DNA of 64,000 bases. Source: Escherichia coli. Its GTDB lineage: Bacteria; Pseudomonadota; Gammaproteobacteria; Enterobacterales; Enterobacteriaceae. Shown here piece by piece: positions 766 to 30,607 of the stretch. How positions within the stretch are numbered: position 1 is the first letter of the stretch; each line of letters starts with the position of its first letter. Location of the stretch: assembly GCF_029227855.1 (NCBI RefSeq), contig NZ_CP074356.1. One strand, 5' to 3'. Both the position numbers and the translations under genes were made by a program. The notes under the pieces were generated by a model. That model was not told where the DNA came from. It was given only the letters and a program-made list of their open reading frames with translations, and made no database searches.

Positions 766-1425
766 TTACTGCATCATCCCGGAGAATTTATTCTCCGGGT
801 CCATCTCCAGCGCCAGTCCTGACAACTGCTTTCTGTTTTTAATTAGATACCCTTTCTTGCTTTTAATTAATAAACCGTCGTGAATGAATTGCGCGAGAAC
901 ATATAAAAGATGTCGATAAGAAACGCCTAAATACTCTGCCGCTTGCGTATGCTTTTCGTGATAAAGATCACCTTCCTGCGAGAGTAATATAAATGCTGCC
1001 AGGCGATTCACTAACGGAAATGATTGATTCTGAGTTAAAGAAACAATATTACGGTAATTTTTATGACTTAAGGTGACGCAGAGTTTTCGTAAAAATAGCG
1101 TGTCGTTTAATAACACCGGGCGGTAATGTTTCATAGGGAGCGCAAGGCACCAACACTCTTCAATAGCCTGCACCGCACGCGGTTCATGGTCTTTGTCGAT
1201 TAACTCAATCTCGCCAATAAAACAGGGAGCGGCAAAGAAATCGATCAGCGACACGCGACCATTAGCAAGCGTGGCGTAAAGCCTGGCGCGGCCTCGCGTC
1301 AGGTAAAACAGCCAGGACGGCTGTTGCCCTTCCTGCACAATGTAGTCACGCGCTAAAAAATGAAACAGCCGCGTATCGGCTGAAACATCCGTTGAAAAGC
1401 AATCCTTAAACGCGGATTCACTCAT
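766..1425 (-). CDS. yeiL: Crp/Fnr-family transcriptional regulator YeiL
   Basis: ORF 766..1464; start trimmed to the internal Met of [10 protein letters not shown].. from recalled K-12 N-terminus; C-terminal HTH. Confidence 0.75.
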
Positions 1426-1593
1426 CAATTGCTGCTTAAGATCATTATTGTGGATTTCTTTCACGATGTTTATCCGCTATGAGATTTCTCATATTTAGCA
1501 TACGTACGCTGTTGTTAAGATTCAATCATCGGCCCGGTCGAATTTTCTTTGCTGTAGAAAAAATAACGCAACTGGAAACAGAGGAAATAAACA

Positions 1594-26157: not shown

Positions 26158-27105
26158 ATGCGTGTGTTACTGGCACCGATGGAGGGTGTACTCGACTCTC
26201 TGGTGCGTGAATTGCTGACCGAAGTTAACGACTACGATCTGTGCATCACCGAGTTTGTCCGCGTGGTGGATCAACTGCTGCCGGTAAAAGTCTTTCATCG
26301 CATTTGCCCTGAGCTACAAAACGCCAGCCGGACACCATCCGGTACGCTGGTGCGCGTGCAGTTGTTAGGTCAGTTCCCACAATGGCTGGCAGAGAATGCC
26401 GCCCGTGCGGTCGAGTTAGGTTCCTGGGGCGTGGATCTCAATTGCGGCTGCCCGTCGAAAACGGTTAACGGTAGCGGCGGTGGGGCGACGTTACTCAAAG
26501 ATCCTGAACTCATCTATCAGGGTGCAAAAGCGATGCGTGAAGCTGTACCGGCGCATTTGCCCGTCAGCGTGAAAGTGCGTCTGGGCTGGGACAGCGGTGA
26601 GAAGAAATTTGAAATCGCCGATGCGGTGCAACAGGCTGGCGCTACGGAGCTGGTAGTACATGGGCGGACAAAAGAGCAGGGTTACCGCGCGGAGCATATT
26701 GACTGGCAGGCGATTGGCGAGATTCGCCAGCGGCTGAATATTCCGGTGATTGCCAACGGTGAAATTTGGGACTGGCAGAGCGCGCAACAATGCATGGCGA
26801 TCAGCGGCTGTGACGCAGTGATGATTGGTCGCGGGGCGCTCAATATTCCCAACCTGAGCCGGGTGGTAAAATATAACGAACCGCGAATGCCGTGGCCGGA
26901 GGTGGTTGCTTTGCTGCAAAAATATACCCGTCTGGAAAAGCAGGGCGATACCGGGTTATATCACGTAGCGCGGATTAAACAGTGGTTGAGTTATTTGCGT
27001 AAAGAATACGATGAAGCAACGGAATTATTTCAGCATGTTCGGGTGTTGAATAATTCCCATGATATTGCAAGGGCTATTCAGGCAATTGATATCGAGAAAC
27101 TCTAA
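26158..27105 (+). CDS. dusC: tRNA-dihydrouridine synthase C
   Basis: ORF 26092..27105 trimmed to [11 protein letters not shown].. (Dus family TIM barrel). Confidence 0.9.
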
Positions 27106-27257
27106 GAAACCATAGTGATGTTTTTTGACAATGTGTTAGCTCTTTATCAATAGGCCGCACGGTTGTTTGGTGGCGTCAAAATCGCCGAGGCGTTCCCTGA
27201 AGGCCGGGGCAGCCCACATGGATGTGGGCTGAGGGCGCGTTTTACAGGGATAATGAG

Positions 27258-27268
27258 ATGGACGCTCC
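27258..27268. repeat. Left subterminal inverted repeat of IS element
   Basis: atggacgctcc; reverse complement recurs at 28623..28633 and, imperfectly, over the transposase RBS at 27326..27335. Confidence 0.5.
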
Positions 27269-27336
27269 AGATTTTACGGTATCAAAGTACCAGACTGGAT
27301 CGTTGCAATACGTCCTGAAAAATTAGGAGCGTCCAC

Positions 27337-28362
27337 ATGAAAGTATCAACTCTTGGTATCGACTTGGCAAAGAACGTTTTTCAGCTTCATGGTGTCGATC
27401 ATGAAGGCCATACTATTTTGCGTAAAAAGCTCACCCGGGCTAAGTTTGTTCAGTTTGTGATTCAACTGGAACCTTGTCTGATTGGCATGGAAGCCTGCTC
27501 ATCCAGTCATTATTTTGCGCGATTATTCACCCGCTATGGTCATGAGGTAAAACTCATACCTCCGCAGTATGTGAAGCCTTATGTGAAAACGAACAAGACG
27601 GATGCAGCAGATGCTGAAGCAATCTGCGAAGCGGTAACCCGTCCGAATATGCGTTTTGTTCAGATAAAAACCGAAGAGCAGCAGGCCGTTTTAGCGTTAC
27701 ACACTGAACGGGGAATACTTATCCGTGAGCGGATTGCCTGTGCCAATAGTTTAAGAGCCACACTTGCTGAGTTTGGTATTACGATTGCGGCCGGACAAAA
27801 CCATTTAACCCGTGAGCTGCCAGCCATTCTGGAGGATGGCGAAAATGGTTTATCTCCCTTTGTCAGAACCAGCATCTACAGACAGTCTAAACATATCCGG
27901 GAACTTGAAGAACAAGTTAAACAGGTAGAAGAAGCTCTGGCCTCCTGGTATAGAACGCAGGAAGCCTGCCAGAGAATGGCCAAGATCCCGGGGGTTGGCA
28001 TGCTAACGGCCACTTATGTGGTAGCAGCAGTGGGTAATGCCCGACAATTCAGTACCGCAAAGCAGTTCGCTTCATGGCTGGGGCTGACACCAAAGGAACA
28101 TTCCAGCGGCGGGAAACAGCAACTGGGAGGGATCAGCAAACGTGGAGATGGATATTTCCGATACCTGCTGGTTCACGGCGCACGCGCACTTACCGCCTGG
28201 GTCAACCGAAACGGCGCGGTTGAGGAGAATTCCTGGCTTCAGGGACTCCTTGAGCGGAAGCACTACAATGTAGCTGTTGTCGCCATGGCGGCAAAAACAG
28301 CGAGGATCATGTGGTCAATATTGTCACACAATACTGAATATCAACCTCGGCAGCTCGCCTGA
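27337..28362 (+). CDS. IS110-family transposase/recombinase (DEDD RuvC-like N-domain plus C-terminal Ser domain)
   Basis: 341 aa; N-terminal GIDLAK, GMEACSS, DAADAEAI and C-terminal SSGG...GGISKRGD motifs typical of IS110/IS1111 transposases; resembles IS4321/IS5075 more than IS621. Confidence 0.9.
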   Translation: MKVSTLGIDLAKNVFQLHGVDHEGHTILRKKLTRAKFVQFVIQLEPCLIGMEACSSSHYFARLFTRYGHEVKLIPPQYVKPYVKTNKTDAADAEAICEAVTRPNMRFVQIKTEEQQAVLALHTERGILIRERIACANSLRATLAEFGITIAAGQNHLTRELPAILEDGENGLSPFVRTSIYRQSKHIRELEEQVKQVEEALASWYRTQEACQRMAKIPGVGMLTATYVVAAVGNARQFSTAKQFASWLGLTPKEHSSGGKQQLGGISKRGDGYFRYLLVHGARALTAWVNRNGAVEENSWLQGLLERKHYNVAVVAMAAKTARIMWSILSHNTEYQPRQLA

Positions 28363-28640
28363 CACAAGGTCAGTCAATCTGACGAGGTGCTGAAAAAAAG
28401 TTAACGTCCTGGTAGGTGCAAGTGACTTCAGAAGATGGCAAAACAGGTAAGACCGCAGGCAGGATACACCGAGAGGTAACAAGGGCAAGTTAGCCCGTAG
28501 AGGATGATTGGTACCTGCCTGGCGGATTTCATCATGGTTCGGGATAAAAATCCCATCAGAAACCGGATATATGGCTGCACCTACCCGTTTTATTACATAA
28601 CTGAAGAAAGCATTGCATTCCGGGAGCGTCCATATATGTT
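28363..28640 (+). ncRNA. Candidate IS-encoded guide (bridge/seek) RNA in right-end non-coding region
   Basis: IS1111-group elements encode their guide RNA downstream of the transposase; region has no ORF and several short stems (gtcagtcaatctgac); extent is guessed. Confidence 0.3.
28623..28633. repeat. Right subterminal inverted repeat of IS element
   Basis: ggagcgtccat, reverse complement of 27258..27268. Confidence 0.5.
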
Positions 28641-28863
28641 ACCTCGCGCCCGACCCGGTAGCCGTAAGGGATAAGCCGAGGGCACCGCGCAGCGGCGATT
28701 TTGTTCGCCAGAGCCCGGGGGGGCAGGGGGCGGCGGCGATTGGTCGCCCCCTGCGCGCTCCCTGCGCCAGTGATTATATGAAGCAATGCACATGACAGGA
28801 GCGCAACAGGATGAGAGACTGAAATATTCTCGTTATTTTCGGATCTGATGACATTAATTAATT

Positions 28864-28947
28864 TTAAAATATCATCTTAAATACGCCAGTCACCACCAGT
28901 AGCCCAATCAGGAAAATAATCAATACAGCCCAGAGTATAATTTTCAT
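28864..28947 (-). CDS. yohP: Small membrane protein YohP (27 aa)
   Basis: Minus-strand ORF MKIILWAVLIIFLIGLLVVTGVFKMIF, below the 60-aa cut-off of the ORF track. Confidence 0.7.
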   Translation of the reverse strand: MKIILWAVLIIFLIGLLVVTGVFKMIF

Positions 28948-29170: not shown

Positions 29171-30607
29171 ATGAATCGTGATTTTTTTTATCCAGCCATC
29201 GCCTGTTTTCCGCTGTTACTGATGCTGACCGGGTGTGCGCCTATGCATGAAACCCGCCAGGCGTTAAGCCAGCAAACGCCCGCTGCACAAGTTGACACCG
29301 CATTACCCACGGCGCTGAAAAATGGTTGGCCAGACAGCCAATGGTGGCTGGAGTATCACGATAATCAACTCACTTCCTTAATTAATAACGCACTACAGAG
29401 CGCACCGGATATGCAGGTGGCTGAACAGCGCATTCAGCTGGCTGAAGCCCAGGCGAAGGCAATTGCCACTCAGGATGGTCCGCAGATCGACTTTTCTGCG
29501 GATATGGAGCGGCAAAAAATGTCTGCAGAAGGGTTAATGGGGCCGTTTGCTCTGAACGATCCTGCCGCAGGTACGACCGGTCCGTGGTACACCAACGGTA
29601 CTTTTGGCTTAACGGCGGGCTGGCATCTCGATATCTGGGGAAAGAATCGGGCGGAGGTTACTGCTCGCCTGGGTACGGTTAAAGCACGGGCGGCGGAACG
29701 CGAGCAAACCCGCCAATTGCTGGCTGGCAGCGTAGCCCGTCTGTACTGGGAGTGGCAAACCCAGGCGGCGTTAAACACTGTCTTACAGCAAATCGAAAAA
29801 GAGCAGAACACCATTATCGCCACCGATCGCCAGCTATATCAGAACGGGATTACTTCTTCAGTTGAAGGTGTGGAAACCGATATTAATGCCAGCAAAACCC
29901 GGCAGCAGCTCAACGATGTCGCGGGGAAAATGAAAATTATTGAGGCACGGTTAAATGCACTCACAAATCACCAGACAAAGGCATTGAAGCTTAATCCGGT
30001 CGCGTTGCCGAAAGTGGCAAGTCAGCTTCCTGATGAACTGGGGTACTCCTTACTGGCCCGGCGGGCAGATTTGCAGGCGGCGCACTGGTACGTTGAGTCA
30101 TCGTTAAGCACTATTGATGCGGCAAAAGCGGCATTTTATCCTGACATCAACCTGATGGCCTTCCTGCAACAGGATGCGTTGCACTTAAGCGATCTGTTCC
30201 GTCATTCCGCGCAGCAAATGGGCGTTACGGCAGGCCTGACGCTACCCATTTTCGATAGTGGTCGTCTTAACGCCAACCTCGATATCGCAAAAGCCGAAAG
30301 CAACTTGTCTATCGCCAGCTACAACAAAGCGGTGGTTGAAGCGGTGAATGACGTGGCGCGGGCAGCCAGTCAGGTTCAGACACTGGCGGAGAAAAACCAG
30401 CATCAGGCGCAAATTGAGCGCGATGCCTTGCGTGTAGTAGGTCTTGCGCAGGCGCGCTTTAACGCGGGCATCATTGCGGGTTCCCGCGTCAGCGAAGCCA
30501 GAATCCCCGCGCTGCGTGAGCGGGCCAATGGCCTGTTATTGCAAGGGCAGTGGCTGGATGCCTCCATTCAACTCACTGGTGCGTTGGGCGGGGGTTACAA
30601 ACGCTGA
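29171..30607 (+). CDS. mdtQ: Outer membrane efflux lipoprotein (OMF / NodT family) MdtQ, apparently intact
   Basis: ORF 29081..30607 trimmed to MNRDFFYP..; lipobox LTGC; two OEP-type repeats. Confidence 0.75.
   Translation: MNRDFFYPAIACFPLLLMLTGCAPMHETRQALSQQTPAAQVDTALPTALKNGWPDSQWWLEYHDNQLTSLINNALQSAPDMQVAEQRIQLAEAQAKAIATQDGPQIDFSADMERQKMSAEGLMGPFALNDPAAGTTGPWYTNGTFGLTAGWHLDIWGKNRAEVTARLGTVKARAAEREQTRQLLAGSVARLYWEWQTQAALNTVLQQIEKEQNTIIATDRQLYQNGITSSVEGVETDINASKTRQQLNDVAGKMKIIEARLNALTNHQTKALKLNPVALPKVASQLPDELGYSLLARRADLQAAHWYVESSLSTIDAAKAAFYPDINLMAFLQQDALHLSDLFRHSAQQMGVTAGLTLPIFDSGRLNANLDIAKAESNLSIASYNKAVVEAVNDVARAASQVQTLAEKNQHQAQIERDALRVVGLAQARFNAGIIAGSRVSEARIPALRERANGLLLQGQWLDASIQLTGALGGGYKR

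What the first reader, a model, noticed from the sequence alone, without database searches (positions are those of the whole stretch)
28640..28790. GC-rich structured segment immediately right of the IS
About 150 bp of roughly 70 percent GC sits in otherwise AT-rich intergenic DNA. It contains a perfect 10-bp GC stem (gcagggggcg at 28723..28732 and cgccccctgc at 28745..28754, 12-nt loop), direct repeats of gcggcgatt, and no ORF or T-run. It could be the true right end of the element, part of its guide RNA, or a host repeat that served as the insertion target.
Basis: seen in the sequence. Interest (0 to 1): 0.45.

Follow-up and report, generated by a model that had tools for sequence, protein, structure and literature searches.

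The report
Host RNA-like repeat split by ISEc81
The GC-rich stretch is not part of the insertion sequence: it is the right half of a conserved, highly structured E. coli repeat that the RNA-guided element ISEc81 recognises and cuts in two, so the case is mostly explained, although what the repeat itself does is still unknown.

Summary
In detail: 68% GC, the 10-bp stem and the GCGGCGATT repeats sit at the stated coordinates. The segment is host DNA. It is in 5425 of 5426 complete E. coli genomes, whereas the IS is in 179. It lies 98% identical at the uninterrupted dusC-yohP site of K-12.

The IS is ISEc81 (IS1111 type), window 27252-28635. It sits inside a roughly 230-nt host element whose left half is 27157-27251. 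The same IS, in the same orientation and at the same ...ACAGGGAT|GTTACCTC... junction, occupies paralogous copies at ybaP-copA and yegH-asmA.

The host element is a dispersed repeat of Enterobacteriaceae. Its fold is strongly supported by covariation: 52 pairs, 98.6% paired, 27 pairs with double changes. It contains two GGA-loop hairpins and resembles Rfam TwoAYGGAY, but scores 30.9 bits against a threshold of 43.

The IS's own non-coding region holds a 9-nt exact complement, GAGGUAACA, to the target across the junction. That explains the site choice.

The element's function is inferred only: probably an RNA, possibly CsrA-binding. This is a new member of known kinds, of moderate interest.

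The parts
26158..27105 (+). dusC coding sequence. This is context: the host element starts about 50 nt after its stop codon, on the same strand.
   Evidence: RefSeq annotation of the identical locus L002, transferred by offset; ORF list.
27157..27251 (+). 5' half of the host structured repeat. It holds the 5' strands of the outer helices, hairpin 1 (CAGCCCACA-UGGA-UGUGGGCUG, 27210-27231) and the 5' arm of hairpin 2 (GGGCGCG 27233-27239, loop start ACAGGGAT 27244-27251).
   Evidence: Contiguous with the 3' half in the empty site L001. nhmmer profile positions 18-105. Covariation in helices 1-6.
27250..27251 (.). AT dinucleotide shared by target and IS. It is repeated at 28636-28637, so the crossover point cannot be placed more finely than these 2 nt.
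   Evidence: The blastn alignments of the empty site against the window overlap by exactly AT. The junctions are identical at three loci.
27252..28635 (+). ISEc81, 1384 bp, of the IS1111 group of the IS110 family. Equivalently 27250-28633, because of the shared AT.
   Evidence: Absent from the empty site. Copies at 99% identity or more are the best hit in 175 E. coli records. The transposase is 337/341 identical to the ISfinder ISEc81 protein listed in supplement 6 of PMC11187229.
27258..27268 (+). Left subterminal inverted repeat, ATGGACGCTCC.
   Evidence: 11-nt perfect reverse complement of 28623-28633.
27337..28362 (+). Transposase gene, 341 aa.
   Evidence: NCBIfam NF033542 'IS110 family RNA-guided transposase', 357.6 bits against a cut-off of 140.
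28363..28622 (+). 3' non-coding region of the IS, the candidate seekRNA region. The predicted internal loop has GAGGUAACA (28473-28481) on its 5' side, a small hairpin GGGCAAGUUAGCCC (28483-28496), and UAGAGGAUG (28498-28506) on its 3' side.
   Evidence: The 9-nt exact complement to target top strand TGTTACCTC spans the junction. Fold. The architecture matches the one described for IS1111-type seekRNAs in PMC11187229. The second guide is only an imperfect match: 5 contiguous nucleotides, or 8 of 11 with a bulge.
28623..28633 (+). Right subterminal inverted repeat, GGAGCGTCCAT.
28636..28768 (+). 3' half of the host structured repeat, which is the finding itself. It holds:
- the 3' arm of hairpin 2 (GTTACCTCGCGCCC, 28638-28651);
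- the conserved AAGGGAUAAG box (28667-28676);
- a small hairpin (about 28685-28696);
- the 3' strand of the outer stem (GCGATTTTG..CGCC, 28696-28709);
- the tail GCGCTCCCTGCGCC.
   Evidence: 98% identical to the empty K-12 site. Present in 5425 of 5426 genomes. Helices 1-5 and 10-13 are supported by covariation.
28798..28807 (+). GGAGCGCAAC box, conserved about 35-40 nt 3' of the terminal hairpin in E. coli, Klebsiella and Enterobacter copies. It may mark the true 3' limit of the repeat.
   Evidence: Alignments. Its role is unexplained.
28864..28947 (-). yohP, a small membrane protein gene that converges on the element. Context only.

Best explanation
The segment is the 3' half of a host-encoded, roughly 230-nt, GC-rich structured repeat. 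ISEc81 has inserted into that repeat and split it.

Shown:
- The repeat is a dispersed family of Enterobacteriaceae, with one to several copies per E. coli genome and more in Klebsiella, Citrobacter and Enterobacter.
- Its fold is an outer multi-helix stem enclosing two hairpins whose loops carry GGA (CAUGGAUG and CAGGGAUG). These are followed by a small hairpin and a long terminal hairpin with a conserved GGCGAUUG-type loop.
One of the two GCGGCGATT copies is the 3' strand of the outer stem. The other is the terminal loop.
- ISEc81 is always inserted between ...UUACAGGGAU and GUUACCUC..., in the loop of hairpin 2, in one orientation and without a target duplication.
- Its 3' non-coding region carries an exact 9-nt complement to the target across the junction.

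Inferred:
- ISEc81 finds this site by RNA-guided recognition, as shown experimentally for other IS1111-type elements.
- The dispersed repeat gives it several equivalent, probably harmless landing sites.
- The host repeat probably acts as an RNA transcribed in the dusC direction. My estimate is about 0.6.
- Its two GGA hairpins may bind CsrA. My estimate is about 0.3. Hairpin 2 matches the SELEX consensus ruACArGGAugu at 11 of 12 positions and hairpin 1 at 9 of 12, and they lie 28 nt apart.
- The insertion destroys hairpin 2 and the outer stem, so it should inactivate this copy.
For: Host origin:
- Empty-site comparison.
- Segment in 5425 of 5426 genomes against the IS in 179.

Target specificity:
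- Identical junctions and orientation at dusC-yohP, ybaP-copA and yegH-asmA.
- The junction is present in 173 of the 175 genomes that hold a full-length IS.
- The flanks differ between loci in the way the resident copies differ, so they are not carried along by the IS.

Structure:
- RNAalifold on 69 copies gives 52 pairs, 27 of them with compensatory double changes.
- 98.6% of cells are paired, against 40-49% when the partners are slid. 0 of 500 shuffles reach the observed covariation.
- The K-12 copy has an MFE of -129.9 kcal/mol, z = -5.5.

Strand:
- 166 G-U cells against 25 A-C cells. Alignment fold -53.0 against -46.2. MFE -129.9 against -114.3.

Relation to TwoAYGGAY:
- Full-length Rfam match at 30.9 bits, E = 0.006, for E. 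coli.
- 42.7 bits for a Citrobacter copy, and 80-88 bits for classical copies in a Lachnospiraceae MAG caught by the same search pattern.

GGA loops:
- They are kept in 23 copies found by nhmmer that were not selected by my search pattern.

IS identity and guide:
-.
- The mechanism for relatives is in PMC11187229.

CsrA:
- The idea for TwoAYGGAY was published in PMC4333381.
- The consensus sequence is quoted in PMC5694010.
Against: - No transcript evidence could be obtained. No promoter-like or terminator-like site flanks the element.
- At ybaP-copA the element is not downstream of a co-oriented gene, so read-through cannot explain expression there.
- The one E. coli CsrA dataset I could read (its CLIP columns included) marks dusC 'No' in four columns whose headers I did not see and 'NS' overall. 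The table is organised by gene and may not cover the downstream region.
- E. coli copies fall below the Rfam gathering score, and loop 2 is AGGGAU, not AYGGAY.
- Only one of the two expected seekRNA guides is a clean match.
- Frequent head-to-head pairs of copies in other genera and near-identical copies within genomes also fit a DNA-level mobile repeat.
- Most loci in the alignment were retrieved with a pattern that fixes the loop sequences. Invariance of those columns in alignment A1 is therefore by construction.
Confidence: 0.85

Rival explanations
1. The segment belongs to the IS, either as its true right end or as part of its guide RNA, and travels with it.
For: It abuts the IS. IS1111-type elements do carry a structured non-coding region at their right end.
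Against: - It is present without the IS at the same locus in K-12 and in 5425 of 5426 genomes against 179 with the IS.
- The right flank at yegH-asmA is the diverged resident subfamily, not the dusC-type sequence.
- The subterminal inverted repeat ends at 28633.
Confidence: 0.01
2. The host repeat works at the DNA level, as a MITE- or REPIN-like mobile repeat. Its hairpins form in single-stranded DNA and are recognised by a transposase or other DNA enzyme. Any RNA would be incidental.
For: - It is dispersed and its copy number varies.
- Copies within one genome are nearly identical: seven in Enterobacter sp. ENT03, with a 640-bp unit.
- 29 neighbouring pairs lie head-to-head.
- Presence varies at given loci, for example ybaP-copA, and the K-12 yegH-asmA copy is a half copy.
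- Other IS1111-type elements target foldable DNA repeats such as REP and attC.
Against: - There is a strong excess of G-U over A-C pairs on one strand, including a G-U pair kept in 67 of 69 copies. This fits RNA better, although one specific DNA strand would also tolerate G-T.
- No target-site duplication or terminal inverted repeat was seen at the one replaced site I examined.
- No associated transposase was identified.
- It resembles an Rfam motif that its discoverers judged probably RNA.

This rival concerns the function of the repeat. It is compatible with the main conclusion about the segment.
Confidence: 0.25
3. The GC hairpin is simply the transcription terminator shared by the convergent genes dusC and yohP.
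For: It lies between two convergent genes and is a very stable hairpin.
Against: - There is no T-run on either strand, and no terminator-like site is called at the empty or the filled locus.
- The same hairpin, with covarying stems and a conserved loop, occurs in dozens of unrelated intergenic contexts as part of a larger fold.
Confidence: 0.07
4. It is a chance GC-rich patch with a fortuitous palindrome.
For: The 151 nt alone fold no better than shuffled sequence (z = -0.99).
Confidence: 0.01

Closest known systems
TwoAYGGAY RNA motif (Rfam RF01731; Weinberg et al. 2010, PMC2864571)
   Same: - Two adjacent hairpins with GGA-centred loops (CAUGGAUG, CAGGGAUG), enclosed by a longer outer stem.
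- The Rfam alignment is full-length for the E. coli and Citrobacter copies.
- Both occur in several copies per genome.
- The original paper lists gamma-Proteobacteria among the taxa.
- The CsrA-binding proposal for the loops (PMC4333381) applies at least as well here.
   Different: - E. coli copies score 30.9 bits and the best enterobacterial copy tested scores 42.7, both under the 43-bit gathering score. Classical clostridial copies score 80-88.
- Loop 2 is AGGGAU or AGGGAC in most copies, not AYGGAY.
- About 80 nt of extra 3' structure, namely the small hairpin and the long terminal hairpin that make up most of the finding, lie outside the Rfam model.
- The composition is much more GC-rich.
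IS1111-type insertion sequences with a seekRNA (ISEc11, ISKpn4, ISPa11; Siddiquee et al. 2024, PMC11187229). IS621 and its bridge RNA is the IS110-type analogue.
   Same: - The transposase is 341 aa, matches the IS110-family RNA-guided transposase model, and falls in the 330-350 aa size range.
- It has subterminal inverted repeats and a long non-coding region downstream of tnp.
- Insertion is orientation-specific, has no target duplication, and lands in a foldable repeated host sequence. ISPa11 goes into REP and ISKpn4 into attC.
- A short NCR segment is complementary to the target top strand, sits in an internal loop, and lies 5' of a second candidate guide.
   Different: - The target sequence (TTACAGGGAT|GTTACCTC) differs from those described: ISEc11 recognises GTGAAAATACTG.
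- The target here is a 230-nt structured, TwoAYGGAY-like repeat, not a REP or an attC.
- The second, bottom-strand guide is imperfect.
- No experiment exists for ISEc81 in the papers I could search.
REP/BIME and ERIC intergenic repeats of enterobacteria
   Same: They are dispersed, intergenic and palindromic, often occur in inverted pairs, vary in copy number between strains, and are used as landing sites by IS110-family elements. The statement that IS621 inserts into REP is from my own knowledge.
   Different: - There is no sequence similarity. A real BIME sits at the K-12 ybaQ-copA site and looks quite different.
- This unit is far longer than REP and has a multi-helix fold with conserved loops, not a simple stem-loop.
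CsrB/CsrC-type CsrA-sequestering RNAs
   Same: GGA motifs are presented in hairpin loops that match the SELEX consensus, spaced so that one CsrA dimer could bridge them. The spacing rule is from my own knowledge.
   Different: - There are only two or three GGA sites per unit, against about 9-22 in CsrC and CsrB.
- It is not a single dedicated gene, has no known BarA/UvrY control, and no binding data.
- The resemblance is a lead, not a test.

Membership tests
TwoAYGGAY RNA (Rfam RF01731) | Covariance-model score at or above the curated gathering threshold of 43 bits | tested here: not met
   E. coli K-12 copy 30.9 bits, E = 0.006. Citrobacter youngae copy 42.7 bits. Classical Lachnospiraceae copies 80-88 bits.
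TwoAYGGAY RNA (Rfam RF01731) | Two neighbouring hairpins, each with an AYGGAY terminal loop | tested here: inconclusive
   Both hairpins are present and covary (helices 6 and 7-9). Loop 1 is AUGGAU, which fits. Loop 2 is AGGGAU or AGGGAC in most copies (R where Y is expected) and AUGGAC in some. GGA is kept throughout.
TwoAYGGAY RNA (Rfam RF01731) | Outer stem enclosing the two hairpins | tested here: met
   Helices 1-5 have 23 pairs, 9 of them with double changes, and 98-100% of cells are paired. Their sequence does not match the Rfam consensus well: many 'v' marks appear.
IS1111 group of the IS110 family | DEDD-type IS110-family transposase of about 330-350 aa | tested here: met
   NF033542, 357.6 bits against a cut-off of 140, 341 aa. 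The size range is taken from PMC11187229. The catalytic residues were not checked individually.
IS1111 group of the IS110 family | Subterminal inverted repeats and a long non-coding region downstream of tnp | tested here: met
   11-bp perfect repeats at 27258-27268 and 28623-28633. A 273-nt non-coding stretch follows the stop codon, against 85 nt before the start.
IS1111 group of the IS110 family | Site- and orientation-specific insertion without target duplication | tested here: met
   Three loci show the same junction and orientation, with only a shared AT. The junction is present in 173 of 175 genomes.
IS1111 group of the IS110 family | NCR-derived seekRNA with one segment matching the top strand and one the bottom strand of the target, overlapping at the insertion point | tested here: inconclusive
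   The top-strand guide GAGGUAACA is exact, 9 of 9, and spans the junction. About 0.02 junction-spanning matches are expected by chance (my own estimate). The bottom-strand candidate UAGAGGAUG lies on the opposite side of the same predicted loop and is imperfect. The existence of the RNA was not testable.
IS1111 group of the IS110 family | Circular intermediate with a junction promoter | not testable with these tools
   This needs PCR or sequencing of circles.
ISEc81 (ISfinder entry) | Near-identity to the reference transposase | tested here: met
   337 of 341 residues are identical to the ISEc81 protein in supplement 6 of PMC11187229. The reference DNA and its recorded ends were not available.
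CsrA-binding RNA | GGA in hairpin loops matching ruACArGGAugu, with two sites within bridging distance | tested here: met
   UUACAGGGAUGU matches 11 of 12 and CCACAUGGAUGU 9 of 12. They are 28 nt apart and both lie in predicted, covarying hairpin loops. The consensus is quoted in PMC5694010.
CsrA-binding RNA | Demonstrated binding of CsrA | not testable with these tools
   The only dataset I consulted marks dusC 'No' in four columns whose headers I did not see and 'NS' overall. The table is organised by gene and may not cover the downstream element.
REP/BIME | REP consensus sequence | tested here: not met
   The element shows no similarity to the BIME sequence at the K-12 ybaQ-copA site. No Rfam or other match was found.

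The most novel reading that the evidence does not exclude
The enterobacterial repeat may be an unrecognised, extended branch of the orphan TwoAYGGAY class. In this reading it is a mobile, multi-copy structured RNA whose GGA hairpins titrate or recruit CsrA. ISEc81 has evolved a guide RNA against its most conserved loop. IS insertion would then both exploit the repeat as a safe harbour and act as a natural knock-out of individual copies. E. coli K-12, with a single intact copy downstream of dusC, would become a tractable system for finding out what TwoAYGGAY RNAs do.
Probability: 0.2. Interest if true: 0.6.

Novelty: new member of a known kind. Interest (0 to 1): 0.38.

Why it matters
For the scan, the finding is resolved. 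The segment is host DNA, and the IS boundary can be set at 28635.

Three further points are worth recording:
- ISEc81 now has a defined target and a candidate guide segment, which adds a natural example to the programmable seekRNA/bridge-RNA recombinases.
- The target is not a REP. It is a long, covariation-supported structured repeat related to an RNA motif whose function has been unknown since 2010.
- That repeat has one intact copy in E. coli K-12 and natural IS-disrupted alleles in about 3% of sequenced strains. This makes its function, including the published CsrA hypothesis, directly testable by simple genetics.

Tried and rejected
- **Rfam on the interrupted window.** It gave only chance-level hits, AgvB at 22.9 bits and mir-611. 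The TwoAYGGAY match appeared only on the uninterrupted locus.
- **Phage collection.** No match to the element.
- **'Plasmid' matches.** Most are mislabelled chromosomes or chromosome fragments. They were useful only as a source of Klebsiella and Citrobacter copies.
- **BoxC.** Rejected: it is a purine-rich triplex motif.
- **RSA repeat.** I could not check it, because no text is held. I set it aside only because, from memory, K-12 has six RSA copies, whereas K-12 has one intact and one half copy of this element.
- **ISEc11 as the identity of the IS.** Rejected: it has a different target and its protein is 339 aa.
- **Promoter and terminator scans.** Nothing above the shuffle expectation.
- **Exact-match search for a second, bottom-strand guide.** No clean hit. 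CGUUUUAU at 28586-28593 matches the left flank 7-14 nt from the junction, but it lies outside the predicted guide loop.
- **Literature on dusC-yohP and on ISEc81.** Nothing relevant.
- **Comparing the ybaP-copA alleles.** This was meant to define the ends of the repeat. It showed a cassette replacement (ybaQ plus BIMEs against the element) with no target duplication, so the ends remain approximate.

Full report
**Observation**

- gcagggggcg is at 28723-28732 and cgccccctgc at 28745-28754, with a 12-nt loop.
- gcggcgatt is at 28692-28700 and 28733-28741.
- GC is 0.68 over 28640-28790, peaking at 0.73. The DNA to the right is 0.37.
- No T-run or terminator-like site is present.

Three corrections apply.
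- Mechanical ORFs do cross the segment.
- The 95 nt to the left of the IS are also GC-rich (0.62).
- The 151 nt alone fold no better than shuffles (z = -0.99). The hairpin's significance rests on comparative evidence, not on energy.

**Host or IS?**

A megablast of the 151 nt finds it in 5425 of 5426 complete E. coli genomes, with a median of two places per genome. The IS is in only 179 genomes.

In a K-12 derivative (L001) the segment lies between dusC and yohP with no IS. Aligning that empty site to the window gives two blocks, 98-99% identical, that abut and overlap by the dinucleotide AT. The sequence reads ...GTTTTACAGGGAT | IS | ATGTTACCTCGCGCCC.... The IS is therefore 27252-28635, 1384 bp, and the crossover point is ambiguous by the shared AT.

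**What the IS is**

- The 341-aa protein matches NCBIfam 'IS110 family RNA-guided transposase' at 357.6 bits against a cut-off of 140.
- It is 337/341 identical to the ISfinder ISEc81 transposase listed in a supplement of Siddiquee et al. 2024.
- The element has 11-bp perfect subterminal inverted repeats, at 27258-27268 and 28623-28633.
- Its long non-coding region lies downstream of tnp.
- It makes no target duplication.

These are the features that paper gives for the IS1111 type.

**Target specificity**

Seven further ISEc81 copies that I fetched lie at two other loci, ybaP-copA and yegH-asmA. In every case the flanks read ...TTTTACAGGGAT | IS | ATGTTACCTCGCGCCC, in the same orientation.

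The flanks are paralogues of the dusC-yohP sequence, not copies of it. The yegH-asmA copy has a different 3' half with a compensated terminal stem. A query spanning the right IS end and the segment is fully matched in 173 of the 175 genomes that hold a full-length IS. The segment is therefore the right half of the IS's preferred target.

**The host element**

Joining the two flanks gives a roughly 230-nt element. A relaxed BLAST finds it in Klebsiella and Citrobacter. It gives up to 10 places in one E. coli chromosome and 13 in one K. pneumoniae chromosome; both records are labelled as plasmids.

A pattern scan of one genome per species returned 85 stretches. Almost all are in Enterobacteriaceae: Escherichia, Citrobacter, Klebsiella, Enterobacter, Pseudescherichia, Pseudocitrobacter, Kluyvera, Raoultella, Leclercia and Silvania.

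I aligned 69 distinct copies as alignment A1. RNAalifold predicts 52 pairs in 13 helices, 27 of them with compensatory double changes. On that structure:
- 98.6% of cells are paired, against 40-49% when the partners are slid by 1-3 columns;
- 457 cells carry double changes, against at most 75 in the slid controls;
- 0 of 500 shuffles reach the observed covariation.

Across copies it reads GCAGGGGGCGGC, GCCAGGGTGGT, TGTAAAGGGCGT, TGTTAAGGGTAC, GCAGGGGGAGGA and others, each with its exact partner, around a conserved GGCGAUUG-like loop. It pairs with CAAAATCGCC to the left of the IS, and it covaries: Klebsiella has AACATCGC/GCGATGTT and Citrobacter has AAAATTG/CAATTTT. The other 'repeat' is the terminal loop.

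**Strand**

The strand that runs with dusC and the transposase gene is favoured.
- 166 G-U cells against 25 A-C cells.
- Alignment fold energy -53.0 against -46.2.
- Single-sequence MFE -129.9 (z = -5.5) against -114.3 (z = -4.9).

This points to a single-strand-specific function, most simply an RNA.

**Relation to known RNAs**

On the uninterrupted locus, Rfam gives a full-length match to TwoAYGGAY (RF01731) at 30.9 bits, E = 0.006, below the 43-bit gathering score. A Citrobacter copy reaches 42.7 bits. Three classical copies in a Lachnospiraceae MAG, caught by the same search pattern, reach 80-88 bits. No other family matches.

The two hairpin loops are CAUGGAUG and CAGGGAUG. ISEc81 inserts inside the second one.

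My search pattern fixed those loops, so I re-searched all fetched loci with an nhmmer profile. That found 23 further copies lacking the pattern and spanning both hairpins. They still carry GGA in both loops: CAGGGAUG, CAUGGACG, CAAGGAAG, CACGGACG and others.

TwoAYGGAY was judged 'probably RNA' and of unknown function by its discoverers, with gamma-Proteobacteria among its taxa. Gardner and Eldai proposed that its loops are CsrA-binding sites. Here hairpin 2 (UUACAGGGAUGU) matches the SELEX consensus ruACArGGAugu at 11 of 12 positions and hairpin 1 at 9 of 12, and they lie 28 nt apart.

I could find no binding evidence. The CsrA data table I could read marks dusC 'No' in four columns whose headers I did not see and 'NS' overall.

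**How the IS finds the site**

In the ISEc81 non-coding region, GAGGUAACA (28473-28481) is an exact complement of the target top strand TGTTACCTC, which spans the junction. I estimate about 0.02 such junction-spanning matches by chance.

In the predicted fold it forms the 5' side of an internal loop. That loop is closed by a small hairpin (28483-28496), and its 3' side is GUAGAGGAUGA. This 3' side resembles the top strand TACAGGGATG only imperfectly: 5 contiguous nucleotides, or 8 of 11 with a bulge.

The order, with the top-strand guide 5' of the bottom-strand guide and the two matches overlapping at the insertion point, is the one reported for ISEc11, ISKpn4 and ISPa11. Those elements also insert at a fixed position in foldable repeats. 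I regard RNA-guided targeting as well supported by analogy plus one clean guide match. The second guide is unproven.

**Consequence of the insertion**

The insertion separates the two arms of hairpin 2. It splits the best CsrA-like site between U and G. It also puts the partners of the outer helices 1.4 kb apart. This copy of the element should therefore be non-functional.

**Rivals**

- An IS origin and a chance origin are excluded.
- A plain terminator is unlikely. There is no T-run, and the hairpin recurs in many contexts as part of a larger fold.
- A DNA-level mobile repeat remains a serious alternative for the function of the element. Copies within a genome are nearly identical. The Enterobacter sp. 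ENT03 unit is about 640 bp and includes an inverted second module. 29 neighbouring pairs are head-to-head. Loci are polymorphic for the element.

**Verdict**

The finding is ordinary in kind. An RNA-guided IS sits in its repeated host target, and the 'odd' GC-rich DNA is half of that target.

The modest novelty lies in three things: the identity of the target (an extended, sub-threshold relative of an orphan RNA motif), a defined target and candidate guide for ISEc81, and the fact that K-12 carries a single intact copy in which the motif's function can be tested.

Noticed in passing
L013-L097, e.g. L056 1017-1256 (-) next to 1316-1575 (+): Copies of the repeat often come in head-to-head inverted pairs: 29 '-+' neighbours within 600 nt, and 33 of 80 loci hold two or more copies. 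The partner is usually a third subfamily (GGTCCGGCTGAAAATCGATGAGGCG...) with loops CAGGGAUG and CAUGGACG.
   Followed up: partly
L037-L043 (Enterobacter sp. ENT03); L043 6603-7258 (-): Seven nearly identical copies of a roughly 640-bp unit. The extra upstream part contains an inverted, diverged two-GGA-hairpin module. Rfam gives it a local TwoAYGGAY match of 30.4 bits on the opposite strand.
   Followed up: partly
window 28798-28807, and equivalent positions in L003, L012, L064-L067 and L037-L043: A GGAGCGCAA(C) box is conserved about 35-40 nt 3' of the terminal hairpin across genera. In the dusC copy it is followed by AGGAUGA, an 8 of 12 match to the CsrA consensus. Its role is unknown, and the repeat may extend this far.
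   Followed up: no
L099 12983-13120 (K-12 yegH-asmA): K-12 keeps only the 3' half of the yegH-asmA copy. The 5' half, with both GGA hairpins, was lost by a deletion between the short repeats ACCCAAT and ACCCGAT. K-12 therefore has one intact copy, at dusC-yohP.
   Followed up: yes
L098 5537-6330 against L003 981-1200 and 2585-2795: At ybaP-copA, K-12 carries ybaQ (a HigA-family antitoxin) plus BIMEs where strain SCU-172 carries the repeat. At yegH-asmA some strains have a relE pseudogene and an HTH gene directly after the repeat. Toxin-antitoxin remnants and the repeat share or alternate at these sites.
   Followed up: partly
L084 4299-4462 (-), 9047-9210 (-), 9327-9490 (+): There are three classical TwoAYGGAY copies (80-88 bits) within 14 kb of a Lachnospiraceae MAG contig, on both strands. 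The classical motif is therefore also multi-copy and locally clustered.
   Followed up: no
window 28781-28841 (-): A weak Rfam match to AgvB (22.9 bits against a gathering score of 56, E = 0.04-0.2) lies between the repeat and the yohP stop codon. It is most likely chance, though the stretch could hold the yohP terminator.
   Followed up: no
window 29172-30607 (+); L001 3032-4467: mdtQ is annotated as intact (not flagged as a pseudogene) in JNEC-KY178, whose sequence matches the window 100% over both the 151-nt segment and the 1384-bp IS, but is annotated as frameshifted in the K-12 derivative.
   Followed up: no
window 28744: This strain has T where most E. coli have C in the 3' arm of the terminal hairpin. 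That turns a G-C pair into G-U and makes the perfect stem look 10 bp long instead of 12-14.
   Followed up: yes
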